64,000 nucleotides of DNA from Candidatus Omnitrophota bacterium (GCA_029261035.1 JAJDCD010000010.1:14612-78611); one strand, 5' to 3'. Counted from the stretch's first letter, positions 1,176 through 29,300 are shown. Notes: a model not told the origin generated them from the letters alone. Numbers and translations: made by a program.

Positions 1176-1190
1176 AAAAGGAGTAAAAAA
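1158..1190 (+). repeat. perfect tandem repeat, 3 x 11 bp (ggagtaaaaaa)
   Basis: 1158..1168, 1169..1179 and 1180..1190 are identical. The methyltransferase stop TAA (1173..1175) lies inside copy 2. Each unit carries an SD-like aggag and an A6 tract. Confidence 0.9.
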
Positions 1191-1222
1191 GGGACAGTCC
1201 CCTTTGGGGACAGTCCCTTTTT
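1185..1222. terminator. bidirectional intrinsic terminator shared by the convergent methyltransferase and clpB genes
   Basis: The sequence is A6, then gggacagtcccc, ttt, ggggacagtccc, then T5. The hairpin is an 11/12-bp stem with one A-A mismatch and a 3-nt loop. The A-run and T-run on either side let it act on both strands. It sits between the methyltransferase stop (1175) and the clpB stop (1226). Confidence 0.7.
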
Positions 1223-1225
1223 GCG

Positions 1226-4273: not shown

Positions 4274-5319
4274 TTATGCGGCTTGTGCGACCTGTCTTGC
4301 TGCTAGTTCTTGTGATAACAGCTTATCAAGTAACTGTCGTACAGAAGCAACGTTGAAGAAGAACCGGTCTTCTTCACGGGCTAATCCGCGAGATACAAGC
4401 TCGTTAGCTACCGCTTCACCATAGCGTGCAATTTCACGGCCTGTTCGGAGAACCACAGGTTTAACCCAATCATAGCGGTCCAGAGCCTGTTTATCGTAAA
4501 CCACGTGGTAAACTCCTTTAGCACCTGTTACTCGATCACTTAAGTCGGTTTCTTCATTTGAAACAACTGTCATTGCTTTATTTGTATATTCTGGTTGTTG
4601 TCTCAAGTCGGTCACAATTCGGTTCAAGCTTAAACCTTGATCTGTGATCAAGATTACTTGCCCTCTAACACTCTCTGGAATAGAGATAGCTACATCTTCA
4701 GGAACATTAGCTATAACGAGTTGATGATTCTGGGTTCCAGAGAAGTAATTGATAAAGGCATCATCTTCATCTGGTGTTCCAATAAATGGCAAGTAAACTC
4801 CTGTGTTCCAATCTACAACCTGAACCGAAGGTGCTGGGGAAGCTCCAGAACCTACAATCATTTTATCCAAAGCTTCATTAAATCCAGTCGAAACGAGATC
4901 TGCCGCTGCTCGAACATCGCCCAACTGTGTTTGTAATTGTGTTAAAGCAAACTGCCCTTTTAAACCTTGTATAGAATCTAAAGCAGACAACAATGCACTT
5001 TGTTGAGAATCTGTCAAAGGAGCTTTTGCTACAGGAACACCTAAACTCTCAGCTGTAATTTCTGGAACAATTTTTTCTTTAACAGGTTTTTCACCTAAAG
5101 AAGATCCATAAATATCTTTTTCTTTAAGCGTATACAATTGAGCTATGCGTAGTTTATCTGCCTTTGAAACTAAATTATAACGTTTTCTTGGTAAACCAAA
5201 ACGTTGAACTGATTCACTTCTACCTGTCTTCTCAAAAACTTTTTTCAAGTATCCCGATTTGTCTCTTTTAGTAAAATCAGAATCCGTCCATTTTTTGACA
5301 TCAATTCTTCTTTTACTGA
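4274..5319 (-). other. C-terminal globular domain (~348 aa) of unknown function after the last transmembrane cluster
   Basis: This is a non-coiled-coil, mixed-composition segment (VDWNTGVYLPFIGTPDEDDAFINYF ... VYHVVYDKQALDRYDWVKPVV). I recognise no motif in it. Confidence 0.4.
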
Positions 5320-8300: not shown

Positions 8301-11300
8301 CCTGTAAAATAACCTCTCACAACACGTTGAACTTTGATTCCATCGAGAGTATCTGTTGCTGTCACCCACTGATCATTTTCATCGATTAAAATCTGGCCAT
8401 GCTCTGAAGTGGTACTCGCATTCATGGAGAAGTCCGTCAATGTTCTTGCTAGAATAGGAACATCTGGGTCTTTTTGAGTCAATTGAAAATCAGGGATTAT
8501 CTTTTCTTTTCCACCCTGATCTTTTTTGAGTGTTCTAAAATCACTCACCTTTTCTAAGGTGACTATCTGATCAGGATCCGATATTAATTCAGCACCCTCA
8601 TAAGATAAAGCTCCTGTCACCTCACCAACGGTATAACCGTCTCGACTATAAACCAACAATGCTTCACGGTAATCATCCGTCACCGCAACATGACTTGTTT
8701 GATTTTGAGCAAGTATATAATTACCATCACTCGTTGCATAATCTATGGAGTCTCTAGCCACATCCTCTTTGCTCTTCAAACCTTCATAGTCCACATCTAA
8801 CTCAATAACAACTCCATCTTTGTCAAAAGTTAACTTACCGTTATTAACTTCAAAACCATCTTTTTGGTGAACCAAAATGCCCGAAACCAAATTGCCCCCT
8901 TCCATATAATAAACATTTTGATAAAACTGCTCTCCACGATCACCTTGAAGTTGGGTTACATCCACAGGACCTTTAATTAAGTAACTGTTTGCATTTGCAT
9001 TGTAGTGAACCTCAGTAGCATGTTCTTCCATAGCTGCTTTTGCAATCGCATCCGCACCTTTAATCAAATATCCTTTTTGTTTTTTGAAGACATTGGCCTC
9101 TCGCTCAATTTCATCCACAACAACAGCGGTACCTTGTTCTGCAGCTTTTAATCGGGCAGCATTCTGAATATCTTGTTTATTGGCAATGCGAACCCCTCGA
9201 ATTGGGTCTGCTTCGATATTTTCTCTAATCGTAAAAGTTCCGTCCATTTCACGCTTAATCGCACCTTGGTTACTGGCAAGACCATGAACTTTTAATATAA
9301 CTGTTTGTCCAGGCTGTATTTCATCTAAGGTAATATTTCTACTCACCCTTCTTTTTTTGGATCCTTTTTTGCTCAACCTTGAGAAAAACCCTTCTTGAGA
9401 GAGAAAAGAATATTTTCCATATTCTAAAGCTTCTCCGAAAAGTTGAATCCTTCCATAATCACTATCGATTAAATCTCCTTCAACCAAAATCTGTTTTCCA
9501 TCTTTTGTTGCCATGTCTCCACGAGAAATATCAATTTCAGGCTCTTCATAGAGAACCGCTCTTTTTTCTTTTTTCAAAGCCTTTCCATGTTTCTTTAGTG
9601 GCTGTTCCATAACCACAAAAGTTTTAGCACGTTTTACTGATTTTTTTGTTTGCCTGTTATTTTCTGTTACAGTAGCAGATCTACGAGTTAAAACACCAAA
9701 GCCAGGACGACTCATAGAAAAAACAGATTCTTCAGATTTTGCACGATAAAGAATCTCTTTCTTATTCAACTTATATTTTTTTCTAGGAATAACAACGCTA
9801 CCTGTTGCGTCTAGTAAATTTCCTTTTTCATCTAAGTAATACACTTTTTTTACAACTTCATTTGTATTTGGATCTAATCGTTTTAAGATCACTTCCTGCT
9901 CAAAAACAAGGTCTGCTGTTAATGGCATTCTTCGGCCTTGATTATCATAAACAACTTCGTCTTTACGCGTTCTGAGCGTACCATCATCATTCCACCATAC
10001 CCATTGATCTTTTCTTAATATTGGCTTAGAGCTCGATGGTTTTGAACCTGGCTCATAAACATCTCCCTTAAACACAGGGTATCTTCTTTCAATCATTTGA
10101 CCTGGGTTTTTAGGATCTTCTGCCATACCCACAATAAAACGTTCCGTTTTAACTTGCTGAACATCCCACTCTTGCTTACTATTATCTGGACGTGTGATTT
10201 CTAGCGCATTTTGCTGTTCAATATAAAAACCTTCATCGTAAGCACCAAAAAGAGCCGCATCAATATCTCGATTATCTGTTTTAATTCGTTTATCTTCTCC
10301 ATAAGCCGTATAGGTTCTTGGATGCGTAACACCATATTCTAAAAATTCAAATGCGTTCTGTAACTGCCCCCATTTCACACCAAATTTTTCCAAGTGTTCT
10401 TGAACATAAATAATACGATCAGCACCAAAACGATCTCTCAATCGCTTAATTTCTTTAATTTCTGCTTTAAGAACATTTGGCTTACTCGTTCTAGAAACAA
10501 GCAATAGTTTTAAATGATCATTCGGATCCAGGTCTTCATGATCAATTACTTTTCTATCTTTTGTTTTAGGATCATAAACCTTATAAAAAGCAAGCTGAGC
10601 TAATTTAGAAACTTTATCTACAGGAACATAAGGTTGAAACAGAATGTGAAGGTCTGAAATCAAGTCCTCTCTTGCTAAAGTTAAAGCTTCATCTGCTTCT
10701 TCTTGAATCTCTTCTATTTGAGCTTGCATATCTTCTAACGAAATAATCCTATCTTCAAATCTTGATTTGGTTTCTGTCACTTTCCTTCTTTTATCAGAAT
10801 CGATTGTTTGTCTTCTTTTGACTAACTCCAACTTCGCTGCTTCTACGTTTTTTTGCAATTGGCGCACAATATCTTCTTGCACTGCATCATCCATGTTAAT
10901 AAATCGATCTTTAACGTCAGGAATCAAACTATCTACATAATCAATCCAAAAGGCTCTTGTCTTCTCATCGTAAGTACGCAGGTTCACTGTGTTCAAGAAA
11001 CTGGTTTTACTGTGAACCATCGCACTTTGCGCTTCTGATGGAGATTGCATCAAAATAGGAGTTGCCATTGCAGCGCTCCATCTCATTGATGCTCTATTGC
11101 TCTTCAACGCATACTCATCATAATCCAGTTTTTGTTTGCGATAAAAAATATTCATCAGAGTAAACATCATAATCTGTCTAAAAGGACGGTTAATATAGAC
11201 ATAGAAAAAGGAAGTCGCCCAAACAATCATTCCAGCAGACCAATTCGCATCCATACCCACAATCATATAAAAGTAAGCAGGAGCTGTTAAAAGAATATTA

Positions 11301-14300
11301 TCCAAAAGATTTGAGAATGTGGTTACAACATCTCTTTTGGCTTCAAAATATGCTATCTCTTTCGTTTCTGTAAAATAAGCCGTTGGAATCCAAGGAATAT
11401 ATCGAATAACAGCAACAACAAACTTTAAAGCACTGAATGCCAAGAACCCAGCAACAAAGGAGGCAAAAATGGCATAGCCCCAGAAATTAAAAGCGGTCAT
11501 GTTAACCACAGCAGCAAGCATCGGTTCTAGGTGAAACAAAGTATATAAACCACCCATCAAAGGAACAATAACAAGTGGACTGAGCCAAACCAAGAAACTC
11601 TTAACATTTCCAATTTTTATGGATTTTGAAGTTGGTTCTCTTTCAGGGATTTGAGGAAGATCTTCTTCAGCCACATCACCGTGAGGTAAAGACTGACCCA
11701 CACCCAAACTAGCACCTTCCGTCAAATCCTTTTGAGTTTGAGCAACAAGTTCCGGACGTCCCAAACTAGAACCACTCCCTGTCTCAGGACCACCGGCACT
11801 CCCACTAGTTGCAGTCGACCCTGTATCATCTTTTTTCTTTTTCGTACCAAAAATTAGAAGGCTAAATAAAGCCCAAAGAGCTGCAAAAGCACCTAAAATC
11901 ATTCCCAATCCGCTCCAGAAGTTTTCTTTAATCCAACTTCTCCACTCGTCGGCTCGCGTTTCTCCTTGATCTACTGTTGGTAAACGCTTTTTAATTTCTT
12001 CCAATCCTCTTTCAGCGGCTAATTGGTCAATTTTTTCTTTTACCTGTGTTCGAATTGCTCCGTCCAAAGCATCTCTTAAGTACTCTGGAGAATAACCCAT
12101 AATTTCTCTTAAGTTTATTTTCTGATTCAAGTCTACTTGCGCTTCGTCTAGAAGAATCAACAACATTTGGTCATCTAATTTACCCTTTGTTGGTGTCACC
12201 TCTTCCTGAATCCGCTGAGCTCTATCGACTAATAAAATAAAGTTCACCACATCCAAATTACGTTTTTGAATTTGATCTAAAATCTGCCCTGCAGCTCGCT
12301 GCCTAGCAAGTATGATCGTTTCACCATCTTGAACCTGAACAAGCGTAGACATAGTTAAACCTTCTAAACGACTTGTTATAATACGAATATCTCTTTCTCT
12401 ATTCATATCCAAGACAGGAAGCTCAACTGGAGCTGTAATACTTGTTTTCAAAACCAAACCTAATCGACTGAGCAAGAATTCATTCACTTTAGATTTATTA
12501 CTTCCACTCAATGTAATCCCGAGGCCGCCGTTGCTTGTAGACGCTTCCATCACTTCGTTCACATTCTTAAGCAAACTAACCAAAATAGCAATATCCCCTG
12601 TTTGAACTTCTGCCTGCGTTCGAGATTTATCTACTTCAAGACCCGTTTCCAATAATCGATAAACCACATGATCTAAAGCATTGGTTACAACAGGGATTTG
12701 ACCTTGTTGAATCGCTTGATTTAAGAAAATTTTAGCACGCTCTTCCAAAGCCTCTTCTCGAGCTTCGGCTGTTCTACCAGGAACCGGCCCTAAATCTTTT
12801 AGGATTTCTTTTACGTATTCTTTTAAAACAAAGAAACTGCGAAACTGTTCCAAAGTCCAGCCATCATTGTCTTTTTGAGTCACATAAAAAGCAATTTGTC
12901 CCTTTTCTTTCTCTGTTAAATCACTCAATGTTCTAGGAGTCTGGCCATCAGGTACATTTCGATTTACAATTTCAAGGTAGATATTTCCAATTTGAATTCG
13001 ATCAATATAAGAAATATTAATCGCATCTCTAGGGGTAAAACCATTGGTCAATACTTGAGAGTATAAAAACCCTAATACCTTACTACCAATTTCCGCTTCT
13101 GCTTGACCCAGGTCCAACTGCTCACGAATAGTGTCAATCTCTGCTTTTCTCTCAACTGAAGTTCCTGCTGCTGCATATTCTGTATTTAATTCTCCATTTA
13201 AGTTGATCAACTCTGCTCGAATGTTAGCTTCGATTTGAGTTTGAAGCACACGGCTATCTCTTTCATTTTGCTCTTTAATTTTATACTCCGTTAACCGTTC
13301 TAAACGATTTGCTTTTTCTTGATCTCTCAGTTCTTTACTCTCTCTCAATGCTTTTCGGTAATTTTCAGCATTCTGCTCGTGCGCTGCTTCCGCTCTACCC
13401 ATACCCGTTCTGTCTCTTAAAATTCGGGCCTCAATGCGATCCAAAGACCTCTGTAACTGAGCAGAATCAATACTGCCGTCTCGTTCAAACATTTGTCGTG
13501 CTAAAAAGAATTCTAAAGTGCGTCGAATACCGCCCACTTCTTCAATAATCGTTTCTTGTTCTCTACGCACTTGCATATTGTAGTAAGCATGATCTCCACG
13601 CTCTTCAACCAAATTTGAATCTGTCACTTTCTTTGCATACTCAAATAAGTAATGTTGATAGTATTCTGCACGAGTAACAGGGGTATCACTTCCAGGAATA
13701 ACAAAGTACTCTGATTTATCTAGAGCACCCCCAAAAGTATTAAATTCTGTTGTTAATTTTCTATAAATCACACCATAGAGATTTACAGTGTCATTAATAT
13801 CTCTTAAGGTAATATCTCCTTTAAGACGAGATTCAAAATTTCCACTCATCTGAAAATCTTGAACACCTTTTTGCCAATAAAACTCAGACCAACGAGACCA
13901 GTCCCCTTCATAGAAATCATTAATCTGTCCTCCAATTTGAGCAAAATCCAAAAAGTAAACACGGCTACTATTGGCCCGTAAATTTCTGTTGGTTAATTCT
14001 TGAATCTTACGCACCGCATTAAAGTAAACTTGAATTTTCTTTCGAACATAGTCTCTCTTGATATTTAATTCTTGCTGATAGCGTTGATTTTCATCTCCGG
14101 TATCGATTCCAACAGCTCTTTCGATGATATTGGCTCTATGCCTAAAAAAGTCTCTTTCAAAATCAATCACTAAACCGGAGGTAGCACCGTCTGTCAATCT
14201 TGGAATATCCAGTTCTCTGACATTGCCAAAACCCTCAACTTGAAGCAATTGCTGAACCACATCTCCTTCAAGACGTTTTATTTGTGCTTCCATTTCCATA

Positions 14301-17300
14301 TAGAACGCCACTTGATCTCGTGTGAAACGACTACGCTCAATGGCTAACGCTCTCGCATCCGTAAGCGCCGGCGTTGTTTCTGTAGACTCAATCGCTGGCA
14401 ACCCTTGAAACGCCCTATTTTTATTGATCTCTTCTAAAATAGATTGTTTTAATGCAGCAACGGCTGTAGGGTTATTGTCATAACGCTTCATATATTCATC
14501 TGCTAAATCTCTAATACGGTCACTGTTGACCATACGATATCTCAAGAACCCAAGCTTACCATCATCTAAACGCTCTCCACGATACAAAGACATATGAAGC
14601 ACTTGAAAATAACCATCTAAAGCTAACCGTTCCATAAAGTCCGTAAAAGCAACCTCCCCGCGATCATACTGAGCAAGTCGACGAGCTCTTTCTTCAGGAG
14701 AAATATTCAAACCGTCCAACTGATTTACGTAAAGCGTTCTTCGTTCTTGTTTTGCCGTTTCTGATAAATCCATCCCCATCATAAACCGTTGACCAAAGTA
14801 AGTAGCTCGACTGTCATCCATTGGATTTTGAGTTTCTCTCAATATACCAATCATAATACGTTCTTTTTGTATCGCTTCATTCAAAGCAAATAAATGGGAT
14901 CTAAACTCTAAACTACGTCCTTCGGATTCAATCGTTTCTAAGATAATGTTACGCATTGTCTCTACGGATCGCAAACGAGCTTCTCTATCCGTTATTTCTG
15001 CACCCATTCGTCTAGTCACTGCTTGATTCATATTATCGATACGCCCCAAGAAACGTTCTAAGGTTACTAATTTTAAACGTCGTCCAATTTGACCTTGACC
15101 AAAAATAACACTCGTAAGCGCTTGTTTTACCTGAGCTCCCAATTGAACAAACTCCGTTGCTTGAAGGCGCAGCGCTGCTAATTGCTGAGTCTCCACATCC
15201 GTACGAGCAGCCCCTTTACGATCTAAGCGAACAATTTCTCTAATAAAAGCTGTTCTTACTGCTTTAACTTCATCGGAATCCAAAAATGCTGTAATTGCAG
15301 CTTTGGTTGCGGTCTCTTTTTGAGTTGCATTCAAACGATCATTATGATCAATCACAGCAAGACTTCTAAGTAAATGATCTTTCTTTAAATTTAATAGACG
15401 AATAGGCTGTCTCATAGCTCTATCGGAAGTAAATTGAATCTCTAGAGGTTGAGATAATCGTATTGCTGCTTGTATGGGTTGAAATGCTTTATCTTGCCCT
15501 TCGAAATCTAAGTTTCTAAAACCCATCAACGTTTCATGGAAACGGCTTTCGGTAATTCCAAAACTACGCTGTAAACGATCATACTGCTCAATATGAGATT
15601 CTTTTAATTGTGCAATATTTCTAAATGTGGTTCTGATATTACGAGGCAAATCTACTTCCACCATCTGAGTTAAACGGTTCTCAGCATCCGTAATTTCTGC
15701 TGTCAAACGTGCAATCACAGCTTGGTCTGTATTTGGCTTATCATTTTCAGCTTTCATTTCACGTTTTTTCACTTCAACCAATAAAGCCTGATCGCGAATC
15801 GTTCTCAAGAAATCACGAATCCAAGATGCTGCTTCTCCTTGCGCCACATCCAGAAAACGCCATTCTTCCACTGCAATACGAGAAACAAGGTGACGTGTCC
15901 TCATTAACCGATTCACTTCTTCTTTAGCCGCATTGTAATCTGAAAAACTAATACCATCTTTAGTATATAACTGAGAAACTTTACCCAAAATGTCTCTCAT
16001 ACGATAATCTCGAGCAAATGTTGTTGCATGTCCTTCAAAGTATCTGTTTAAAACATCTTGTGGTAATTGCAACCCTAACTGCGTTAATGTTTGATTAATG
16101 ATCACTCGTTTCGCATCTCGATCTCGATCTAATTCACGACGGAAATCTTGAGTATCCGTATCCACTTTTACATATTGATTCATTAAATCATTATCTGTGA
16201 TATAAAGTGCCATTCGGATATAATTTTCTAAGTCGCTCAATTGAACTTTTCCATCACTTACTTCTTTCATCATACCAAAAGCAAGAGAATCAACAATAGA
16301 GCTTCGGTATTCCAAATTAAATGCGCGACGATAATCATCCATAACCGTATCCACATTAATCATACCTTCAGCCCCCAACTGTCTTAAATCCCTTTCTAAC
16401 GAAAGTCTCTTTACAGGGCCTGCAAAATTATTCCACTCATTGTCTCGAGCAGCAATAAGAGCAGTAGCAACCGCAGCACCTTCAGCATCAAAAGCTCGAT
16501 TAATACTTTGTTTCACTTGGAAAAACCGCGTAACTGCCGCGCCAAGTTTAGAAACATCTGTCGTTAATTTACCATCGTCCTGAGCTTGAAGGAAAGCTCG
16601 GGTGAGACTTGAGATGGCACTTTCATAAAAAATCTTTCCGTATTCTGTAGAAAGTTTTGTATTTAAAGCTGAACTCATCTGAGTTAAATCCCTTAACCAT
16701 GCATTTCTTTGCGCAAGTGTAATCGAACCTTCCCGATGGAGTTGAATCAAACGTCTTTGTTTAAATAAATTAAGTTCATTGTTAAAACGAGCTTGATTGT
16801 CCAGAATATAACGATCCATTGGAATGTTAGCTTTAAAATGCCTTAAGATAGCCATTCTCATTTGAAGATGTCGTCTAAAATCAGTTCTCAACTGTTCCGG
16901 ATCAGAACTACGAACACTCGACTCTAAGAAATCTTCAGAAATACTTACGATACGACCCCAGACATCTTCTTCTTGCAACGGACGATACACTTCTGTTCTA
17001 CCATCCACAACACGAGTGGCTCTCGTTAACGTTCCTCCTTGAGGAATAACCCCTAATAATATAAAGTACTGCTCTAATTCTCCTTTTACATTACCGGTGT
17101 AACTATCATCAATAAGAAAACGGATTTGCTCTGCTCTGTGTCTGGATTTGACTAACCCAGCAACAATACGGTCAAAAGTGTATGAGGTTAAGAATCCACT
17201 ATGATTCGGATTTCCAATATAATCAAAAGTGAATGTAGCATCATTAGGGTCTGCTAGATTACGTAAACGGAATAACCTTTCAGCATCTGCTTTATTGTTT

Positions 17301-20300
17301 CCCAAAGCTCTAAGAATATGATTTTGCACATTTTTATCTGTAATATTGTTTCGTTTCATAAACTCGTGCCAGTTAATCAATATTCCTAAATCAGAAGGGT
17401 TCAACACATCTAATGGATCAGCAGCAGTTCGTCCCAAAAGGTTCTGAACCTCTACTTTAATATCCATTACAGCCCTAAACCGAGCTTGTAATGAAGATGC
17501 AATTTTATCTCCAAAACTATTCGTCGATCTAAAATTCGTTGTCCTAAAAGTTTCTATTTCTCGATTGACAGCTGCCAGCTGAGTATCATACGTCGTTCTA
17601 TCAATGGCTTTAGTACGATAGTTCGCTTCAATGGTTACTTTTCGATCTTGCAATACTTTCAACCGGGTACTTAAAGTATTAAATTGATCTACCATTTCTT
17701 CATTTTCAATTGCATACAATACCCAATAACTCAACGAACCATAACGTAAACCATTTTTAATACTTGCTGACAATGTTCTGATTCTCTGATTAACATCTCC
17801 CAACTCAACTCTAAGACGATCTCTTTCGGTTGCATCGGAATCACTGGCTAAAGCTGCAATCTGAGCTTCAAGCATCTTTTTCATCTCAACATAGGTTTGC
17901 AGCTCAACAGAACCTGAATACTCTACTAAGTCTTGAGTGCTAATTCGGAAATCATTGTAAAATCGATTAAACTCAAATTGAGGATCTAACACTCGATTCA
18001 TGGTATGGATTAAATTAGAAAATGCAGCAAAGTCATTCGTTTGACCCGCTGTTACAGTCAAATTCGTATTTCTTCTTAAAAATAACCAAGCTGTTAAATT
18101 ACCTCTACTCTGGTTATCTCCAATCATTTGCATCGCATTTTCACTACTCACACGAGTCAAAACACTAATATCATCTCTAATCAAATAACGTTCTCTTTGT
18201 AGTTCATCTGGACTTAAAGAGGCATATGACAATGAAGAGAAAGAGCTATTCAATCGAGGTATCCATGTATTTAAGAAGTATCGATATGTTCTCATTCGTT
18301 CCGTTCTTTCTGTTTCATCTGCAGGGTCTTGAGATGGAACTCCCGCAAAGAGATGGCGAATGTAAGGACGATCTGTTGTTATATTTGCGCGGACGGATGT
18401 TAAGATTTCTTCTAAGATTCTTGTTTTTTCTGCTTGGTCTGTAATTCCCTGGCGAATCACTCTGTCGTGATAGGCACGATAAGCTTGGTTACCAAAGTAA
18501 TCCAAAAGACCTAATTTTCTAAAATCCACTTTTTTATCATTAGCCGTATTCACTGCCTTTTCACTCAAACGGTTTCTTTGAGCATACTGACTCAAACTAG
18601 CCCAATCTCTTTCCCAAGAAAATCCCCAAGATCCACGACCTGAAACAGCTTGGTCTTGTACAATTTCATTCACTTGTGGAGCCAAAGCAATCATCATCTG
18701 AAGCTTCACATCCGTTTGCTCTCCTCTAGGAATATTATGTCTCATAGAGTAGGTATCTAACATCACAACCCAATCTTGCAAATTAAAAACATCGCTGGAA
18801 TTAAAAGCAGTAATTCCAAATGCAGCTCTGTTTAATTCTGCTGCACGTGTTTCTAACATCGTTTTATGAGAAGTAAGTGTTTGCAAACTTGGAGTTAGCT
18901 CAAAGTGAACCGCTTGATATTCTGACTTTGGCTGTCTTCTTGCCAAAGGCCCTGCGGCCTGTGTATTCAACGCAGTTTCTTGCTCGGTAGAAATTACTGC
19001 AGGTCGAGCTGAACGCAATAGCTGATTAACCCTCTCAACAGCATCTTCTTTTTCCTTTTGCCACTCTGCTTGTTTATTTGGTTCCTTTGGCTGAAGTTCT
19101 TTTGTTAATTCTAATTTTAAACGCTCTAAAGATGCCAATACAGGATCCGACAACCTCAAAGAAGCTAACTCTGCTACAGGAATATTTAATTCCCTTAATT
19201 GATCTTCTGTCATTTGAGCTTCTTTAATCAGATCTATAAGAACAAGACCTTCGATTAAACGAGATCTCTCAGAGTCCACAAAACCTAAATGTTGTAATAC
19301 GCTTTTTAGCTGCCCCAACAAGTCCATCATTCTTTGAGCGCGTCTCAATTTAGTATTAATTGTTTCATACTGAGACTGAACTTCTCTTAATTGTTCTCGG
19401 TTGGTACTTTGTTCGACTTGTAATGCTCGTTGCCTTGTTTGTTTTACCCTTTTCTCTTGTAAGGCTGCTTGTAACGCTGCTCTGTTTCGTTCCAGCTCAG
19501 CGCGCACTTCTTCAACTTCTCTAGGCGCCCCTGCTGGCAACGTCAAAACCTGAACTCCAGGTCTTCCTGGAGCTGGTAATTGTGACGTTCTTGCAGGCTG
19601 TGATGTTGGTTGAGTTGTTGGTCTAGATGCTGGACGACTTGCAGGTGCAGCAGGTCGAGTAATAGACGAAAACCAACGTGTTATATCGTCATTTTCATAA
19701 CCCCAATGTTTCAAATGAAGAATGAGTCGTTGTTTCGAAGCAGCGTAGTCAATCAAGGCATTTCCTCGACGAGTACGTGCATTCAACCACTCTTCTCTTC
19801 TTTGGTTAACCGGAGTAAAGGACTCTCCGCTAATAAAACGCTGCCTTGCACTTTGATAAGCTGTTTGAGTTCTTGATACATCAAATACCGCATTTGCTGC
19901 TGTTCTAAAAGTTCTATTGTAATCCAGTAACAGTTCTTCCATTTTATAAACAACTTCAATCATTCTTGCTTTCTGAGTTTCGCTCAATCGAGATGCTTGG
20001 ATACGCGCAATAATCACACGAGCATCGTCTTGTCCACCCGCATAAATATTCTGTCTTATTTCAGCAAAAGCATTTGGAAGATAACTGACAAGAAGCCCCA
20101 CTCTTACTTCAGGTAAAATCCTTTCCCATTCCGCTTGATCTAATTGAAGCTGACCAATTTCCGCTGTTTTCTGCATTACTTCAAGAAGAGGGTCGTTGAG
20201 TTGAACGCCTAAATTCCCCTGATTAACAACATAAACATGACTGCGATCCATACGCGCCATATAACCTCGGTCCGTAGTTGTCTGATCATATCGAGATTGA

Positions 20301-23300
20301 GCTTGGATATCATCATAATCCGGATGTTCTGTTTCTGTTGGCATAACAACTCTTCCACCGGTATGCCCCAGAACAATAAGAAAACGTGCTTTTGCCGCTT
20401 CTAAGTTTCTTCTTGCCCGATCTCGAGCCAATTCTTTGATACGCAATACGGTTAAGGTCCCGCTCGATCCTCTTTGAGCTTCTGTGTGTCCTTGCGCATC
20501 CTTAATTCCGCCACGGCGATTGGCTAACTCATTATCACTTCTAATTTCATCATAGGCCAACTTAGCGTCTTGATAAGTTAAATTAGCACGACGTAATTCT
20601 TGATACGCTTGAGCAATTCGAAGTTGAAGATTAAACCCTGCTCTTCTAATCTGAGGGCCTCTAGCAATATCGGCTCTAATTTTTGCAATGTCTGCATCAT
20701 TTCTCATTAACGATCTTAAAAATTCATAGGATAACTCTAACCCAACATCGCCTTGCAACGGATCTCTTCCATCTCCAAATCTCTGAGAACGATCAAATAA
20801 AGATAAAATATTTTCTTGAGATGTTTTTTGAACAAAGCTACCGTCATTGGTTAAATTCTGGAACTCTAAAGGCATAAAGTCATTATTAAAAAACTGCCAA
20901 CCTGCAATCAGTCGTGCTCTAAAGCCTCTCCAACCATAATTGCCACTTTCGATACCCGAGATACTCTCTGCAGCATTCGCTCGAATCAATGCTTCTTGAA
21001 AACGTGCATCTTCTAAACCACCTGCTTGCTGAGGGTCTACTGCCTGCCTCATTACACCCGCAACATAAGCTTCTGTAATATTAATTGTAGGACCATAATA
21101 AAGAATCTTTTCCGCCATAAAATCTGCGATTATACCCGCATTTGCTTCTGGTAAATTAAATTCTGATTGAAGGATTGATTTAAACTCATTACGAGTTTTA
21201 CTGAGCAATTCGGACCTATTACTAATATTTGCAATTAACCGTTGGTAACGGTTTCCGATCAAAACAGGCTGAACCACTGTTCCAATCACATTTCTCCGAA
21301 CATCCACATTTTGAGATAAGTAGTTCATAAGAATCAGTTTAATTTGAGGGTAATCATTTTGACGATTTAGCTCAGGAAGATAGTAGTCCACCAGATGAAC
21401 AGGATTCGTTCTTCCTGGCATTTTAAGCTGCACACCTTCTGTTTCCTCCAACTGCATTTCTCGTTGGTTAATCAATGATGCTAAATAAAGGTTATTAACC
21501 GCCGTACCAAAAACTTCTTTAATCTTTACATCCAATTCTCTCATTCGTTGATCCAACATGGTCGTTCCTGCTGTCAAAGAAGCTAAATCTTGAATTGTTT
21601 TTTGAAGGTCTGATCGAGAAGCAACCAAAGTAGCACCCGCAGAATCAACCTGGTCCTTTGCATTATCTACTCTGACACGCGCAAGCATTCTCTGACTATG
21701 AAGCCCTCGAAGATGCTCTTTTAACTGAAGCTCTGCTGTTTGAAGCGCGAGGCGCGTTCTAGCACGAGCAATTGCAACTTTACCATTCGTATCTAAATAA
21801 GGAGTCAGGTCAAATCCTGCAAAAAGGCCCACAGAAGTTCCTAAAATAAACCCATCAATTCCAATACGCTGTCCTGCAAGTTGATCGAGCACTCGAACCG
21901 TATTCACATGAGCCACACGGTAGCGAGTTTCTGCATTAGGAGTTAAAAATGGACGCAACGACTGCCACTCACGATCAGCCTGAGCAGGTGTCATCCCTTC
22001 CACAGAAGCTAATGAAGAGTAAGAAATACTTAATTGATCTCGAGGCCCTAAACCAAGAGAGGACTTATAATTCTGTTTCGCACCTTGACGCTGAGCACGT
22101 GCAAGCTGCAACCGATCTCTAGATTGAGCAATCCCTAAATTAGCTTCAGCAATACGAGAAATCGTAGAAGACAATGCCCCTCTCATAAGAGACTCTAACT
22201 GCGCTTTAATATCATTATGTTTTTGCGCATTAATTCCTTGAGCTTGAAGAGTGGCTGTATAACGTGATTTGACAAGCCTAACCGCTTCATCCAAACTTGT
22301 AAATTCAATTTGACCTAAAAGGTCTCTTAAACCATTGACTAAGTTGGTTTCTATTTCATCTGAAGGAACACCTAAACTAACACGATTATTTTGAAGGTAC
22401 GTTCTAAACTGAACTAACATATCAGAACGTAACTGTGTTGAAAGAGTCGAAATAATTTGAGTTCTCTGATTAACCACATTTGTATAACGTGTGACTAAAT
22501 CATTTGTTCCTCTTAATTCTAAATGAGCTCGGTTTGCAGACAAAGTTAATCGGTTACGAATCGCATCTCTCTCTGCTTGTAATTCTTTATATCGAGCAAT
22601 CAAGAGTTTGACATTCCCCATATAAGAACGTCCCTCTTCGGTATCCAGCGCTTTCAAGGTAATACCTGCTCCACCCACAAGAACACGTCGTCTTTGGCCT
22701 GCAGCTACATTCCCATCATAATCTTGCCCCACAGCTCCTTCAACACCTGGAGCAGTTACAGAGCGTAAACGTGCATCTCCCCAATCCAAAGTCACAACAT
22801 CCCAGATCCAATCACCCAAACTATAATGAACTTCCTCCACATTTTCTAATTGTGCAATCAAAGGTTCACTGAGCATATCCTTATCTCGACGGATACGTTC
22901 AATTTCTTGGTTGATGCCAATAATATACTCTGCTTCCAAAGAGCTTTGTTGCCAATAAGAGTCATCAACAAAATCTCTCAACTTTTCTTTTTCATCTGAG
23001 GTCATTGGTAACGCATTAATAATTGTATTCACACGAGCTTTATATAAATCAACCGCATCAGACATAACTGTGTTACGGAAATTAATGATACTTCCGCGTT
23101 CTCTGGTTTTTTCATTCACATAACTTTCAATAGCATCTTTCTGAGCATCAGATAAACCACTAACACCATTAACTCTAGCTCTTACAAGAGCAACCAGTTC
23201 GGTTCTAAAAACTTCTTTTGTTTTTGTATCCTCATCAAACCCGCTAATCGCAGAACGAACCGCTGTCATAATTTCTGTTCTCTTCGCTTCATTAATTGGA

Positions 23301-26300
23301 GTATATTGGCTTAGATGGTAATTAACCGAATCGATAAAATGTTTTACATCGTCATCATCCACACCATCCTCAAAATCAAGTATATCTCCTACTTCCGCAA
23401 CACTCACCTCTTCCGCTGCAGTAGCAAATTGAGCCATCACTGCATCAATTCTTAAATTACCCATCATATACGTTCTAAAATTAGGACCCGGAGTAGCAAT
23501 AACACCGGATTGAGACAAAAACGTAGGGAAATAAATTTCCAATTCTGCCGTTGCTTGGTTTAATTTAATATTCCTTTGAGCCAAACCTTGCAGATAAGCT
23601 TTAAACCCTCTTTTAACTGTTTCTACTTGTCTATCATTCAACATCACGGCTAAAACAACACCTTCTCTTGTTGTTACACTTCTCATAAGGCTCGCTCTAT
23701 TTTCATCGACCCACTTTGAGAAAGTATCATTCACTGGACCCACATGAGATTGATTAAATGTGATCCGTGTTGCTGGAGGTAAAAATCGCCCAATCTCTGT
23801 TCTTAAATGAGAAGCTTCTTTAGCAGAATAAGCACGTCTAATTCTCCAATCAAAAGCCTTTACATGCAGATTGACTTGATTCTCTTTTGTTTCTTGGGTA
23901 AAAACACGGCGCCCTTCTGAGTCAATTGAATATTGTCTTTCCGTTACTCTTTCTGTAATTTCATAGTCCTTATCTGTTAATGCTTCTTTAAGGGTGTTTA
24001 ATTTATTTTGAATTTGTTCTCGGATTTCATCTAGCTCATCTTCTAACGGTCCATCTCCAATCACATCTTCATGGTCATCCAACGCATCATTTAACCCTTC
24101 TAAATATTGTTTTGCTGTATGACCTGCTTGACGAGAGTAACCTGCTATTTGTGCTAATCTTGTAATACGTTGATGGTTTCTAACTAAACGATCCCGGGCT
24201 GCTTCTTCAAATTTATTGACAATACTTTCAGAAAAATTACTACGGCTAATTTTATCGCCATCACTGTCAAAAACAGGTTCCCGACGAATAATACGAAGTA
24301 GATCTTCTTGAATATTTCCATGCAAAGTACGGTTAATACCTAAATGCGTCAGTACTCGAGATAATTGAGCTCTTAAAGTTGCTTCATCCAAATCAGTGCT
24401 GTACATAATATCCAGTTGGTTACGACCTCGAAGCAAAGCTTTCTTTTGATTGAAAAACGTTTGTTCTCTTTCGACCAAAGTTTCTAATCGATCTGAAGTC
24501 AAAGCCCCAGCCTGAGACAATTGTTGTTGAAGCTGTGTTTTTAAGGCCAACATTTGAAGATCATTTGCTTTCATTTCAGGATGTTCTTCAATTCGATCTC
24601 GAAGGTCTGATGCCAAACCACGAGACGTCATATTCACCGAAGGAATACGGTTCATTCGTTCAATAAAGTTCTGCAAACGAACAATCTGATCTTCAACCAC
24701 TGTATCCCCACCTTCGGTCTGAACTTTACGAGTTACTTGCGTCACGTAGCGGAAAAGAATGGCTGATTGATCTCGAAGTGTTTTTTCGGTTTGATTTTCT
24801 TGTCTCAATGCTTCTTGATATTCTCTAAAAGCGGTCTGCAATTGATCATAAGAAACAATCCCTGCAGGATCTTGATAACGAGCCGTTCTCTGGTCTAATA
24901 ATTCTTTAGCTCTTGCTTTCGTATTTCGAATACGGAGCAATGCTTGCATGGCTTGTTGCACTCTTAACTGGGTCGCTGCAAATTCGGATTGCTGAGCATT
25001 TAAGTTTCGAATTAACTGAGAATTTTGATGAGCCATTTGTGCCGCAAAGGTAATTTCATTAATTGGGTTATCTCCAAATAGACCTGCTATTTGATTCCAA
25101 CCTTCTTCAAAGCTAACAAAAGGTGAAAGGGATACACCTGACAAACCTGCTTGAATACGAAGACGCGCTAATAAACGCAACCGTGTAGAAGCACGTTGAT
25201 AATCCTGATTTAAATGTTGAAGTTCCGTTGTTTGCCATTGAACTAATTGATCTAAAGTAACTCCATCCGCATCTAATTCAAAACGATACTGTCTTAACAT
25301 TTCAGTTAAAAACTCTCTAGCTTTTGCCACAGGCAAACCAGAATTCGTTAACAATACCACAGGGCTCATATTTAAAATTGGACCACCTGTTCTTGTAATA
25401 GCCCCTGCCCTAAATTCATTGGCTAACCGAATTTCTTGACTTGGAAGAACTCCCATCATTTCCTTGATTTGAGATCGAACTTCCACAAGTTGATAGTTAT
25501 GCACCAAGTTTCTTTGATTCACAAGTCGGCGTAAATCAGACTCTGATCGAGCCAAAACTTCTGCACTTTCAACATTGCGACGAACACGATCTCTCTGAGT
25601 TTCAACCTGCTCTTCTTTTTCTCTAATTAATTCTGTTAACTGATCATATCTACTCTTATATTGTGTGTATTGAGAAACTAAACGAAGAACCGTAATAGCT
25701 GTATCTAGAGCATCAATCGCTCCATACGTTTGTTCTAGCTCTATACGTGTTCTCGTAATTTTTTCCACAACTTCTTGTCTTGGATCCCAGAAGTAATAAG
25801 TGACGTCCATTCCAACACCCACACCTCGCCTTAAGTCTGCACCCAAAAATAAATCAACACGAGGGAGGCCTGTAGCTGCATCAATAATACCTCTCTGTCT
25901 TTGGATTTCGACAGCAGCTCTTCTAACCTGATTTCTCCAACGAGTTCCCTTAAGAATGTCTTCTGCTTTTAAATTATTAAAGTCAATCCCACTATGTTCG
26001 ATTAATCGCCCTTGATGTGTAAAGTTAGCAGGAACAGAGTTAATACCACCAAAAACCATACGAGCAATATTTTCGCTACGTCCTACAGCAACGGTCGCTG
26101 GACGACTGCTTGGAGTAGGAGCAGGATCTTCTGGGCTCACCCGCCCTTCCCCTGCAGCAAGGAGTATATTTCTAACACCTCTTGGCAAGGTCGCTGGTAA
26201 GGTTGTTGCACCCCAAGTACGACGATCTCCTAAGCTCACTCTTCTACTAGTTCTTCTAGGAGTAGGTTGTTGAGCTTCTTCTCCCGTGCCAAAAACTTCT

Positions 26301-29300
26301 CTTGCTTCTTGCAAGAAAATATCATTCATGATGTTATAAATTTCAAACTGACGATTAATTTGTTCTAATGTTCGTGATGGCGCTTCAAGAATGTCTACAC
26401 CCGCTGCACGCCCTCTTTCAACTTCACTTTCTTGCATCTGAGTTTGAAATCGAACAGCACGATCTTCCGCAACACCTGTTTGAGGAGAATGACCATCTAA
26501 AACGCGGCCACTCGCATGTCTCATATGTAAATAAAGATAAGCTTCATTGGCTTTACCAAATCCATTTGGAGACAACGTTCTTTCATTCAAAATCAAAGAT
26601 GGCATCAATCCTTCAAACAAACTTCCACCCCATGAAGGAACATAATGAATTGTGCGGTTTTCACCATTAACACGAATTGTTCTCTGGTAAAGTCCATTTT
26701 GTGGTGTTTGAGCTTGACCCGTCGTAGCAGGTTGTGTTCTTGGTGTATTTGTCCAAACATCTGCGGGAACCCCTCGACCCATTGCAACAATCAAATGAGG
26801 TCTAATTTCAGTATAAATCAAACCATAATGTGTTGGATTACCAAACTGGTCTGCTAATGGAGCATAATTACGTGTTGTTGCGTTGTAATCTAAACCGGTA
26901 TACATCTGCTTTCGAGTTGCATCATAAAGTTGTGTGAAATTCATTGCCTCATACAGTCTATTAGCAGAACCTTGAATTCGAGTGTCCGTTGCAAAAGCCT
27001 GTTTTACAACAATCAAACCAGAAGCCAACCAACCATTGTCTACCGTAGAAATTTTACGATCTGAGGTTTGTCCATTAGCAACTGTAATACCATCATGAAA
27101 CAATCCATTCACTTTATTCATTGCTGTAAGTGTACGAAGCACTTTATTAACTCTAGACTTCGCTTCTGCTTCTGTAATAATTCCTAGTTCTTTGGCAGAA
27201 ACAATACTCATCAAATACAAACCAATATTCGTTGGTTTTGTATACGAAGCTCGAGTAGTTCCATCACTCGCCAAAGAATCTGCAGGCAATCCTGTTGTAG
27301 GATCCACAACCGCTTCGAAAAATGCCCACGTTCTTGTTGCAATCTCTCTCAATAACGTTTGATCCGCTGGGGTCAATGTTTGATTTGTATTTAAACCCTG
27401 TGGCGTACTTAATCCAGAAAATGTGGTGTTCATCAAACGTAAGTGAGGCTGAATCGATGCATCCGTTTGAAAATGGTTTTGAACTGCACCATTTCTAACC
27501 GCATTCGCAATCGAGATCATAATCATACCTTGATCTAAACTCAACATCGTTTGGTCGACAGAACCTGTTTCTAAATGGACCGCATCATAAAACCCTTTAG
27601 GACCATAAACAAGAGATTGATCTCTTGCGTCCTTTAAAGCAGCTAATCGTCTAATGTTGGCCATGGCTTCTTGAGGCGCTGTTGACAAAGCTAAGAAAGT
27701 GGCGTGTGGCGTTATCACAGGCTGGTCACTGGTATAACCTCCTGAAGGCTGTGATCCTAGAGGAGCACCAAATTCAGAATAACGTCCTGAAGTACGTGGA
27801 TCGCGAGAAACTGAAAGTCCCCAAGCAGTAAAGTCCCCTGGTAGCTTGTTTGGCGCAGCCACATTCGCACCCGTTCTATAAACTTCAACTAAACGTGTAG
27901 CTCTTCTTTGAATATCCGTAATGTTAGGGTTCGGAACCAATCCACGATATAGAGCAACAATATCTGAAACTTTCTTTGTGTCCACATCAGTGCTTGCAAG
28001 TATGGTACGAACTCTTCTAATCGTATCCAAACTTTGTACCTGAGTTGGAGACCAAAAGTTGTTCTGAGAAGCGACTCGAACCACCCCCTGAATAGATGTT
28101 GTCAAATCAGGGTAAATAGCTGTGATAACTTCGTTCAGTTTTTGATTACTAATTTCATCACCACTCGTACCGGCGGCAGTAACTGCTTTTGCTCGAAAAG
28201 CAACTCTAATAGCATCTGCACCTGAAACTTCAGAAGGAATTAAACCCACTAGAGCATTGACTAAAGTTGCACTATCCTTCTTATGAAAATTTAAATAATT
28301 TCTAAGAGATGTTCTCATAGCCGCATTCAATGGTGCTCCGGCATGAATTTGACGCGCAAGCAAACGTCTCATATCTTCTAAATTAGCTCTTTTATATTCA
28401 TATAATGTCCACTGAAGAGCTAAATTAGTCCTCCACTCATCATTACCCCATAAATAATTAAATAACGCTCCTGAATTACCACCCATCGCACGCATTGCAG
28501 AAGGCATTCCTCTATAGTAAATTTCAACGAATTTCTGTACGAAAGCTTGATTTTCACTTAAAGCAATCAATTGGTCTTTTACATTTTGAGACAATGTTGC
28601 TCTATTGCGTCTAATATATTCTTCAACCGCTTCAATCAACTTACGTCTTAATTGAGCAACAGTTCTTTCTTGTCCTCTTCGATTTAACTCGCCTTGATGT
28701 CTGTCTAGATTATCTGTCAGACGACCTAACTCGACTAATTCACGATTAACCGTCGTTAAATCTCCTTCAATTCGCGTAGCGCCTACCTGTAAACCGCTAA
28801 TCTCTCCTCCTTTTTCTCGAGACAATTGGTCTAAAGAACCTCTCATAGAATCCAAACCGCCCTCCCCTTGCGCTGTGGTAATAGACTCTACTAATAAAGA
28901 AATAATCTCACGCTGTACTTCTGGGCTACGTCCTTCTAAAGTACGAAGGATTCTTTCTATATCTGCTTGAGTCAACGGAGTTTCTGGAGAAGCCGTATTT
29001 ACTGCTGCTTGGAAAGTGCGGGCTCTCTGCTGGATTTCTGCACGTTGATCCACTTGATATTTTTGATTTAGATACTCCCCACCAAAAACCATTCCAAAAA
29101 CCAAAGTAAGAATCAGTATGATTTTACCGAAGCTCTTCATGCCTTTGGCTTTATTAATGGAAAGCATAAAACTGATAGAATCCCAAACCCTATAAAAACT
29201 CCAAAGAGCAAAAGAACCTATTCTTCCGATACCGCTAATTGGTTTACCAATGGCTAAAAGTAGACCTCCTACGACAGAACCCACAATCAGAGGAACTGAA

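What the first reader, a model, noticed from the sequence alone, without database searches (positions are those of the whole stretch)
19690..22400. TolC/outer-membrane-factor-like segment suggests the giant protein may span both membranes
Several stretches show the helix plus short Gly-rich beta-strand pattern of OEP/TolC repeats. Examples are LPEVRVGLLVSYLPNAFAEIRQNIYAGGQ, GIDGFILGTSVGLFAGFDLTPYL, and a C-terminal ..ALIDYAASKQRLILHLKHWG resembling the conserved TolC repeat end. This segment is directly followed by a Pro/Ser/Thr-rich linker. The protein also has an N-terminal Sec signal, three inner-membrane-type helix clusters and long coiled coils. A TolC-like module would therefore imply a single-polypeptide trans-envelope assembly. 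This is speculative but would be unusual.
Basis: inference. Interest (0 to 1): 0.55.

Follow-up and report, generated by a model that had tools for sequence, protein, structure and literature searches.

The report
TolC-like repeats inside giant envelope protein
A 16,198-residue membrane protein carries, in a loop that probably faces the periplasm, about 1,000 residues built from very diverged copies of the repeat that forms TolC-type outer-membrane channels. This would be an unusual place for such a module, but whether it really enters the outer membrane is not shown.

Summary
The quoted motifs are all present, at aa 10337, 10919 and 11038 of one 16,198-aa ORF (window 4274-52870, minus strand).

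- **Significant repeat.** Pfam OEP (PF02321, the TolC/outer-membrane-factor repeat) matches aa 10892-11049 over profile positions 11-182 of 187. The score is 22.0 bits in a 4,600-aa chunk and 31.6 bits (E 1.8e-7) in a 211-aa piece; the cut-off is 22. The reversed sequence gives no hit, and about 19,000 further residues of helical sequence give none.
- **Weaker copies upstream.** A profile I built from 40 repeats of 20 plasmid and E. coli OMFs places its four best hits in the whole giant inside aa 10227-11039. Locally shuffled giants give 0.4 hits of that strength per protein.
- **Structure unresolved.** AlphaFold did not model beta-hairpins, either without an alignment or with a shallow TolC alignment. 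The segment has almost no relatives, so no informative alignment could be made.
- **Context.** A hand reading of the positive-inside rule puts the module in a 5,700-aa periplasmic loop. No adaptor or pump genes are nearby.

Verdict: OMF-derived repeats are real. The trans-envelope reading is plausible but unproven.

The parts
4274..52870 (-). Giant ORF of 16,198 aa that contains everything below.
   Evidence: It is a stop-free frame of 48.6 kb. Its only Pfam families at or above the cut-off are OEP, Glycoamylase and DUF3131.
52760..52870 (-). N-terminal signal-peptide-like segment, aa 1-37: a KYKKTIKT charged stretch, a hydrophobic core and VLA|Q.
   Evidence: read from the sequence. No signal-peptide predictor was available.
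29066..29776 (-). First cluster of inner-membrane-type helices, aa 7699-7935, read as about 6 helices with both ends outside.
   Evidence: Kyte-Doolittle scan. Positive-inside reading by hand; this is inference.
27059..27826 (-). Glycoside-hydrolase-like domain in the same predicted periplasmic loop: Glycoamylase PF10091 at aa 8349-8468 and DUF3131 at aa 8510-8604.
   Evidence: 56.7 bits (cut-off 27) and 38.4 bits (cut-off 20.3).
22376..22693 (-). Possible degenerate repeat R0, aa 10060-10165: two beta-amphipathic stretches followed by a helix of about 70 aa.
   Evidence: Sub-threshold Pfam OEP match of aa 10080-10149 to profile positions 77-146, at 8.8-9.3 bits and E 1.3-1.7. My own profile gives 2.8 bits. 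Weak.
21458..22192 (-). OEP-like repeat R1, aa 10227-10471. It holds a helix, LGLGPRDQLSISYSS, a loop of about 54 aa, the FILGTSVGLFAGFDLTPYL strand motif and a helical hairpin of about 51 + 53 aa.
   Evidence: My own 40-repeat profile gives 7.7 and 5.4 bits, the 2nd and 3rd best hits in the whole giant. Forty shuffled giants gave no hit of 7.7 bits or more. hhalign scores 31.5-31.9 here against 12.3-18.5 in 13 control windows. VGLFAGFDL is the only 9-mer with 8 of 9 identities to the six E. coli OMF repeats. There is no Pfam hit.
20339..20794 (-). OEP-like repeat R2, aa 10693-10844. DVGLELSYEF aligns to the second strand and RIAQAYQEL to the conserved 'VaqaY' motif of the long helix. The boundaries are uncertain.
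   Evidence: My own profile gives 4.7 bits, the 4th best hit in the giant, aligned to model positions 60-124. A tile covering aa 10760-10979 gives Pfam OEP at 15.1 bits and E 0.021, with aa 10809-10917 on profile positions 15-98. Different tools read this stretch differently.
19724..20197 (-). OEP repeat R3, aa 10892-11049, the only copy that is significant on its own. It reads as helix, LP, EVRVGLLVSYL, PNAF, AEIRQNIYAGG, a helix of about 65 aa, QRFISGE and a helix of about 37 aa ending in LKHWG.
   Evidence: Pfam PF02321 matches profile positions 11-182 of 187 at 31.6 bits, E 1.8e-7, and at 22.0 bits in a long chunk. The reversed control is negative. It is also the best hit of my own profile at 9.3 bits. 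It shares QRFxxG and other residues with TolC repeat 1.
19535..19654 (-). Pro/Ser/Thr/Ala-rich linker, aa 11073-11112, directly after the module.
   Evidence: 47.5% P/S/T, or 62.5% when Ala is included.
11387..11920 (-). Second cluster of inner-membrane-type helices, aa 13651-13828. Its first helix is followed by KKKK, which closes the predicted periplasmic loop aa 7936-13650.
   Evidence: The topology is inferred by hand.
5327..6769 (-). Third cluster of inner-membrane-type helices, aa 15368-15848.

Best explanation
Residues about 10060-11058 of the giant protein are a tandem array of very diverged outer-membrane-factor (TolC-family, Pfam OEP) repeats. One copy (R3) is well preserved. At least two (R1, R2), and perhaps three, degenerate copies lie upstream.

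The array sits in a loop of about 5,700 aa that is anchored in the inner membrane at both ends and probably faces the periplasm. The same loop carries a glycoside-hydrolase-like domain.

The most likely role is structural. The long antiparallel helices would form a TolC-like stalk that crosses the periplasm. The short amphipathic hairpins at its tip would dock on, or insert into, the outer membrane. This would tie the inner-membrane-anchored giant protein to the outer membrane and might provide a duct.

- Shown: homology of R3 to OEP, and clustering of weaker OEP-like pieces upstream.
- Inferred: periplasmic location, stalk formation, contact with the outer membrane, and any channel function.
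For: **Homology of R3**
- Pfam OEP scores at or above the curated cut-off and covers nearly the whole profile in one stretch.
- The reversed sequence gives no OEP hit.
- Chunk scans of the rest of the giant and of its 3,472-aa neighbour, about 19,000 aa of helical sequence, give no other OEP hit.
- R3 keeps the helix breakers that bound the hairpin in OMFs (LP ... IYAGG) and the QRFxxG turn shared with TolC repeat 1.
- Predicted helix lengths of about 64 and 37 aa match my recollection of TolC's long and half-length helices.

**Further copies upstream**
- The independent 40-repeat profile places its four best hits in the whole giant (9.3, 7.7, 5.4 and 4.7 bits) inside aa 10227-11039. Six of its best eight fall inside aa 10085-11039.
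- The reversed giant reaches 3.3 bits at most. Forty locally shuffled giants give 0.4 hits of 4.7 bits or more per protein and none of 7.7 or more.
- hhalign scores 31.5 at aa 10237-10286 against 12.3-18.5 in 13 control windows.
- VGLFAGFDL matches the second strand of MdtP and is the only 8-of-9 match in the protein.
- Sub-threshold Pfam OEP pieces lie at aa 10080-10149 and 10809-10917.

**Location**
- The positive-inside reading places aa 7936-13650 outside the cytoplasm.
- Both candidate strands of R3 show beta-type amphipathic periodicity comparable to known OMF strands.
Against: - Only one repeat passes a curated threshold. R1 and R2 have no Pfam hit at E up to 10.
- AlphaFold modelled the putative hairpins as helices in both runs, and Foldseek found only generic helical hairpins with E of 0.3 or worse.
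- The R3 hairpin is 28 aa from LP to GG, against 39-52 aa in the E. coli TolC and CusC repeats I measured.
- Tools disagree on the register of R1 and R2.
- Beta-amphipathic windows are not enriched in this segment, and some helical control segments show equally high beta moments.
- No adaptor, ABC, RND or MFS partner is encoded in the window.
- The topology was read by hand, and the organism, including whether it has an outer membrane, was not identified.
Confidence: 0.55

Rival explanations
1. The repeats really descend from an OMF, but the beta-barrel function is lost. The module would be a soluble periplasmic helical spacer, one more rod-like element in a coil-rich scaffold, with no insertion into the outer membrane.
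For: - AlphaFold models the hairpin regions as helix-turn-helix.
- The R3 hairpin is unusually short, and its second strand has a Gln on the hydrophobic face (read).
- The upstream copies are degenerate.
- No transport partners are nearby.
Against: - R3 keeps the Pro and Gly-Gly helix breakers exactly at the hairpin boundaries, and both stretches between them alternate in the beta manner.
- R1 keeps a near-exact OMF strand motif.
- Both AlphaFold runs lacked an informative alignment and were monomeric, so they carry little weight against strands that only form within a barrel.
Confidence: 0.25
2. The OEP match is a false positive: chance or convergent similarity of long Ala/Gln/Arg/Leu-rich antiparallel helices. 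The region would be ordinary coiled-coil-like filler.
For: - No pairwise method finds any OMF: BLASTP against TolC, phmmer against PDB, tblastn against plasmids, and the two large protein searches.
- NCBIfam finds nothing.
- The score only reaches the cut-off of 22.0 bits when the repeat is scanned inside a long chunk.
Against: - E 1.8e-7 with 172 of 187 profile positions covered in one stretch, including the hairpin part.
- The reversed sequence is negative.
- About 19,000 aa of similar composition give no hit.
- An independent profile and hhalign both pick the same 1,000-aa region out of 16,198 aa.
Confidence: 0.1
3. The giant ORF is a polyprotein. The OMF-like module would be cut out, for example at the Pro/Ser/Thr linker, and act as a free, oversized outer-membrane factor.
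For: - A disordered linker follows the module directly.
- West-Roberts et al. (10.1101/2023.11.21.568195) raise the possibility that giant proteins are cleaved by their own peptidase domains.
Against: - No peptidase domain was found in this protein.
- No cleavage signal or separate signal peptide lies in front of the module.
- There is no direct evidence of any kind.
Confidence: 0.08

Closest known systems
Outer membrane factor (TolC / OprM / CusC) family: Pfam PF02321 OEP, TC 1.B.17
   Same: R3 matches the OEP repeat profile over nearly its full length. It has the family's order of elements: helix, Pro, two short amphipathic stretches, Gly-Gly, a helix of about 65 aa, a turn with QRFxxG, and a helix of about 37 aa ending in Gly. 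Upstream copies share the 'VGLxxxxDL' strand motif and the 'VAQAY' helix motif. A Pro-rich tail follows, as it does in E. coli TolC.
   Different: - It is embedded at residue ~10,000 of a 16,198-aa protein with inner-membrane helix clusters on both sides, not a free 420-500-aa protein with its own signal peptide.
- It probably has three or four repeats in about 1,000 aa instead of two in about 430.
- Only one repeat is recognisable by Pfam.
- The hairpin is shorter.
- No adaptor or pump genes are nearby.
- Trimer and barrel formation are unknown.
Giant membrane-anchored proteins of Omnitrophota (West-Roberts et al. 2023, 10.1101/2023.11.21.568195; Nielsen & Lui 2026, 10.64898/2026.06.07.730766)
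   Same: The protein is longer than 10,000 aa and combines a signal peptide with helix clusters, the 'SP+TM' class that makes up 39% of their catalogue. It is nearly devoid of Pfam hits and sequence-unique; 80% of their clusters are singletons. It has a carbohydrate-active domain.
   Different: - Neither paper mentions TolC, OEP or outer-membrane efflux domains.
- SecA_DEAD, dockerin and C39 domains, typical of their classes, were not found here.
- I could not show that this window comes from Omnitrophota.
Inner-membrane-anchored proteins that reach the outer membrane (TolA, TonB) and coiled-coil outer-membrane tethers (OmpM / SlpA type). These are functional analogies from my own knowledge and were not tested.
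   Same: A long helical stalk crosses the periplasm and links an anchor in or under one layer to the outer membrane.
   Different: There is no sequence relationship. Those proteins use other domains at the outer-membrane end (a TonB/TolA C-terminal domain or a porin-like barrel) and are 100 times smaller.

Membership tests
Outer membrane factor (TolC family, PF02321) | Significant match to the OEP repeat profile | tested here: met
   aa 10892-11049 scores 31.6 bits, E 1.8e-7, against a cut-off of 22, on profile positions 11-182 of 187. The reversed control is negative.
Outer membrane factor (TolC family, PF02321) | Two tandem OEP repeats per protomer | tested here: inconclusive
   Pfam finds only one repeat. 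Further copies are supported only by sub-threshold Pfam pieces and by the clustering of weak hits from my own profile and from hhalign. There may be three or four copies rather than two.
Outer membrane factor (TolC family, PF02321) | Each repeat contributes a membrane-spanning beta-hairpin between its helices | tested here: inconclusive
   R3 has the boundary motifs LP and YxGG and alternating hydrophobicity. AlphaFold modelled helices there at pLDDT 59-69 and about 31-35. The LP-to-GG hairpin is only 28 aa.
Outer membrane factor (TolC family, PF02321) | Free secreted protein or lipoprotein of about 420-500 aa with its own signal peptide | tested here: not met
   The module is internal to a 16,198-aa ORF and is flanked by inner-membrane helix clusters.
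Outer membrane factor (TolC family, PF02321) | Homotrimer forming a 12-stranded barrel on a 12-helix tunnel | not testable with these tools
   No multimer prediction was available. The monomer predictions were uninformative.
Outer membrane factor (TolC family, PF02321) | Works with, and is often encoded next to, a periplasmic adaptor and an inner-membrane transporter | tested here: not met
   No HlyD, RND, ABC or MFS domains were found in the giant, in the neighbouring giant ORF or elsewhere in the 64-kb window. The neighbours are ClpB and a methyltransferase.
Omnitrophota-type giant membrane proteins | More than 10,000 aa with a signal peptide and/or many transmembrane helices | tested here: met
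   16,198 aa, a signal-peptide-like N-terminus and three helix clusters.
Omnitrophota-type giant membrane proteins | Encoded in an Omnitrophota genome | tested here: inconclusive
   The ClpB scan of species genomes gave 52-60% identity to many phyla and no informative nearest relative. The contig look-up failed.

The most novel reading that the evidence does not exclude
One polypeptide builds a covalent bridge across the whole cell envelope. The giant protein would be anchored in the inner membrane on both sides of a 5,700-aa periplasmic loop. Three or four internal TolC-type repeats in that loop would assemble, alone or with a second or third copy of the protein, into an outer-membrane barrel with a periplasmic tunnel. 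That would give a cis-linked inner-to-outer-membrane conduit or anchor with a repeat number never seen in the OMF family.
Probability: 0.2. Interest if true: 0.8.

Novelty: new variant of a known kind. Interest (0 to 1): 0.5.

Why it matters
TolC-family channels are known as free trimeric outer-membrane proteins that dock transiently onto separate adaptor and pump proteins. An OMF-derived module fused into the middle of an inner-membrane-anchored giant protein would be a new architecture for this family.

It would also give a concrete, testable idea for how at least some giant bacterial proteins are positioned in the envelope, namely tied to both membranes. The two surveys of giant proteins that I read do not mention OMF, TolC or efflux domains, and one dismisses its only two beta-barrel calls as model artefacts.

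The case also shows that profile hits lose about 10 bits when a repeat is scanned inside a multi-thousand-residue chunk: 22.0 against 31.6 bits here. Short domains in giant proteins are therefore easily missed.

Tried and rejected
**Searches for relatives**
- The word-index searches with aa 10280-11070 and with R3 found nothing.
- The exhaustive HMMER search of 1.84 billion representatives found one 284-aa fragment, P0001, which matches only aa 10152-10316.
- Scans of species genomes and of metagenome contigs with the segment, and of metagenome contigs with P0001, found nothing.
- No deep alignment and no comparative test were therefore possible.

**Pairwise and curated comparisons**
- BLASTP against E. 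coli TolC was not significant.
- phmmer against PDB found no OMF.
- tblastn against plasmids found no OMF.
- NCBIfam found nothing, and Pfam found nothing in P0001.

**Searches spent on building an OMF profile**
- My third large search, with a TolC/CusC/MdtP profile, listed only near-identical enterobacterial TolCs. It was useless for diversity.
- A viral-contig scan for OMFs found none.
- I then collected 17 diverse OMFs from plasmids by tblastn.

**Structure**
- AlphaFold on the single sequence of aa 10150-11070 gave pLDDT 41 and is uninformative.
- AlphaFold on R3 with a shallow, partly mis-registered TolC alignment gave pLDDT 68 and an all-helical model.

**Simple sequence measures**
- The beta-amphipathic window density does not discriminate this segment.
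- The hydrophobic-moment comparison is compatible with strands but not specific.
- A 6-repeat profile from E. coli alone was too weak: scores of 6.0, 5.9 and 3.6 bits against nulls of up to about 4, with one shuffle reaching 9.4.

**Taxonomy**
- The ClpB scan was uninformative and the contig look-ups failed.

**Rejected idea**
- I considered that R2 plus R3 form one ordinary two-repeat OMF protomer. MAFFT, hhalign and HMMER give different registers for R2, so I do not claim it.


Full report
**1. What is at the coordinates**

The window holds one uninterrupted minus-strand ORF of 16,198 aa at 4274..52870. The finding, window 19690-22400, corresponds to aa ~10157-11060.

The module is followed by PAAPASRPASRPTTQPTSQPARTSQLPAPGRPG..., which is 47.5% Pro/Ser/Thr over aa 11073-11112. 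The N-terminus looks like a Sec signal: KYKKTIKT, a hydrophobic core, then VLA|Q. A hydropathy scan finds three clusters of inner-membrane-type helices at aa 7699-7935, 13651-13828 and 15368-15848.

**2. Is the TolC likeness more than chance?**

*The last repeat is significant.* Pfam finds very little in the giant protein: Glycoamylase PF10091 (aa 8349-8468), DUF3131 (aa 8510-8604) and OEP PF02321.
- The OEP match covers aa 10892-11049 and profile positions 11-182 of 187 in a single stretch.
- It scores 22.0 bits (exactly the cut-off) in a 4,600-aa chunk, 25.2 bits in a 1,001-aa piece and 31.6 bits (E 1.8e-7) in a 211-aa piece.
- The reversed sequence keeps composition and helical periodicity and gives no OEP hit.
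- Chunk scans of the rest of the giant and of the neighbouring 3,472-aa ORF, about 19,000 aa of similar helical sequence, give none.

Read against E. coli TolC, CusC and MdtP, this repeat (R3) has the family's order of elements:
- a helix ending in LP;
- two alternating stretches, EVRVGLLVSYL and AEIRQNIYAGG, where the 'IYAGG' corresponds to 'IYQGG' of TolC;
- a helix of about 65 aa;
- a turn, QRFISGE, against QRFNVGL in TolC repeat 1;
- a helix of about 37 aa ending in LKHWG.

*The upstream stretches are not significant singly.* No Pfam hit at E up to 10 was returned for aa 10280-10560 or aa 10560-10880. Smaller tiles gave only sub-threshold OEP pieces. One is aa 10080-10149 on profile positions 77-146, at about 9 bits. 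The other is aa 10809-10917 on positions 15-98, within a 15.1-bit, E 0.021 tile that also overlaps R3.

*An independent profile supports further copies.* To get a full ranking with proper nulls I collected 17 diverse OMFs from plasmids and added the three E. coli ones. I cut them into 40 repeats, built a profile and searched the whole giant without filters.
- The four best non-overlapping hits in 16,198 aa are aa 10936-11039 (9.3 bits), 10227-10270 (7.7), 10371-10432 (5.4) and 10693-10765 (4.7).
- Six of the best eight hits lie within aa 10085-11039.
- The reversed giant reaches at most 3.3 bits.
- Forty locally shuffled giants give 0.4 hits of 4.7 bits or more per whole protein, and none of 7.7 or more.
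- About 0.02 such hits are therefore expected in the 850 aa upstream of R3, where three are seen.

*The alignments make structural sense*. DVGLELSYEF aligns with the second strand, and LQLRIAQAYQELRRAN aligns with the conserved 'VAQAY' part of the long helix.

*Two other measures agree.*
- hhalign of 1,100-aa windows against a 6-repeat E. coli profile scores 31.5 at aa 10237-10286, against 12.3-18.5 in 13 control windows.
- The only 9-mer in the giant with 8 of 9 identities to any of the six E. coli repeats is VGLFAGFDL (aa 10347). It matches VGLFAGLDL, which by my reading of the sequence is the second strand of MdtP repeat 1.

I conclude that aa ~10060-11058 is an array of at least three, perhaps four, diverged OEP-type repeats. 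Exact boundaries and registers of the upstream copies differ between tools, so I do not fix them.

**3. What could not be shown**

*The segment is nearly an orphan.*
- The word-index searches found nothing.
- An exhaustive HMMER pass over 1.84 billion representatives found a single 284-aa fragment from a 915-bp metagenome contig, matching only aa 10152-10316.
- Genome and metagenome scans found nothing.

*Structure prediction therefore had no informative alignment.*
- The single-sequence run gave mean pLDDT 41.
- A run on R3 with nine near-identical TolC rows gave pLDDT 68.
- Both were all-helical. The putative hairpin was modelled as helix-turn-helix at pLDDT 59-69 in the second run.
- Foldseek returned only generic helical hairpins, with TolC at rank 2, all at E of 0.3 or worse.

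This counts mildly against strands. It is weak evidence, because isolated monomeric fragments of a barrel without an informative alignment are a poor test.

*Other points against or left open.*
- The R3 hairpin is short: 28 aa from LP to GG, against 39-52 aa in the E. coli TolC and CusC repeats I measured.
- Its two stretches do show beta-type periodicity comparable to known OMF strands, but some helical controls do too.
- A simple count of beta-amphipathic windows does not single out this region.

**4. Context and likely mechanism**

*Topology.* I applied the positive-inside rule by hand to the helix clusters. The first cluster reads as six helices with both ends outside. The Lys/Arg-rich loops lie after the third and fifth helices. 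The next helix, at aa 13652-13675, is followed by KKKK. This places aa 7936-13650 outside the cytoplasm. That is the only compartment from which an OMF-like module could reach an outer membrane, and it is also where a glycoside-hydrolase-like domain would be expected. This step is inference.

*Neighbours.* No adaptor (HlyD-type) or ABC, RND or MFS pump is encoded in the window. The neighbours are another giant ORF without Pfam hits, ClpB and a methyltransferase.

*Preferred reading (0.55).* An OMF-derived module serves as a TolC-like helical stalk whose tip docks on or inserts into the outer membrane, tying the inner-membrane-anchored giant to it.

*Rivals.*
- The barrel part is lost and only a helical spacer remains (0.25).
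- The Pfam match is spurious (0.1).
- The module is released by cleavage (0.08).

The repeat number is open. Three or four repeats per chain do not map simply onto the six repeats of a TolC trimer.

**5. Comparison with what is known**

*Family membership.* The module is related to the OMF family by sequence, but it fails or leaves open most features that define a member. It is not a free protein. Only one repeat is recognisable by Pfam. Hairpins and trimer are unverified. It has no partner genes.

*Giant proteins.* Its host protein resembles the giant 'signal peptide plus helices' proteins described for Omnitrophota, which are mostly sequence-unique. Neither of those two papers mentions TolC, OEP or efflux domains. 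Further literature searches found no report of OEP repeats inside giant proteins. I could not establish the organism.

**6. Verdict**

- Observation: partly confirmed.
- Interpretation: partly supported. TolC-type repeats are really there, while the trans-envelope assembly remains plausible but unproven.
- Novelty: a new variant of a known kind.
- Interest: 0.5.

Noticed in passing
window 4274-52870 (-) and 53566-63984 (-): The 16,198-aa protein has a single cysteine, at residue 15 in the signal-peptide core. The neighbouring ORF of at least 3,472 aa has none. ClpB next door has 2 in 870 aa. Near-total avoidance of Cys over about 19,700 residues is striking and fits extracytoplasmic proteins.
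   Followed up: partly
window 27059-27826 (-): The only clear enzymatic domains of the giant protein are Glycoamylase PF10091 (aa 8349-8468, 56.7 bits) and DUF3131 (aa 8510-8604, 38.4 bits). They lie in the same predicted periplasmic loop as the OEP-like module.
   Followed up: no
window 53566-63984 (-): A second very long ORF has no Pfam family at E up to 0.01. Its listed ATG is 16 bases from the window end, with no in-frame stop before the end, and it has no signal peptide. It probably continues beyond the window.
   Followed up: partly
window 19661-22423 (-), aa 10150-11070: This 921-aa segment has one detectable relative among 1.84 billion representative proteins. It is a 284-aa fragment (P0001) from a 915-bp JGI contig, matching only the first 165 residues.
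   Followed up: yes
window 19724-20197 (-): The same OEP repeat scores 22.0, 25.2 and 31.6 bits when scanned inside pieces of 4,600, 1,001 and 211 aa. Chunk-wise annotation of giant proteins can therefore lose short domains near the cut-off.
   Followed up: yes
window ~17546-18028 (-), aa ~11615-11775: A sub-threshold Pfam match to the PI3K p85 inter-SH2 coiled coil scores 24.6 bits against a cut-off of 31.5. It is consistent with a long coiled coil downstream of the linker.
   Followed up: no
window 474-3838: The flanking genes are ordinary: a class I methyltransferase (474-1175, +) and ClpB (1226-3838, -). Both exact protein sequences exist in an NCBI-derived record on a 207,495-bp contig, but the contig could not be retrieved.
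   Followed up: partly
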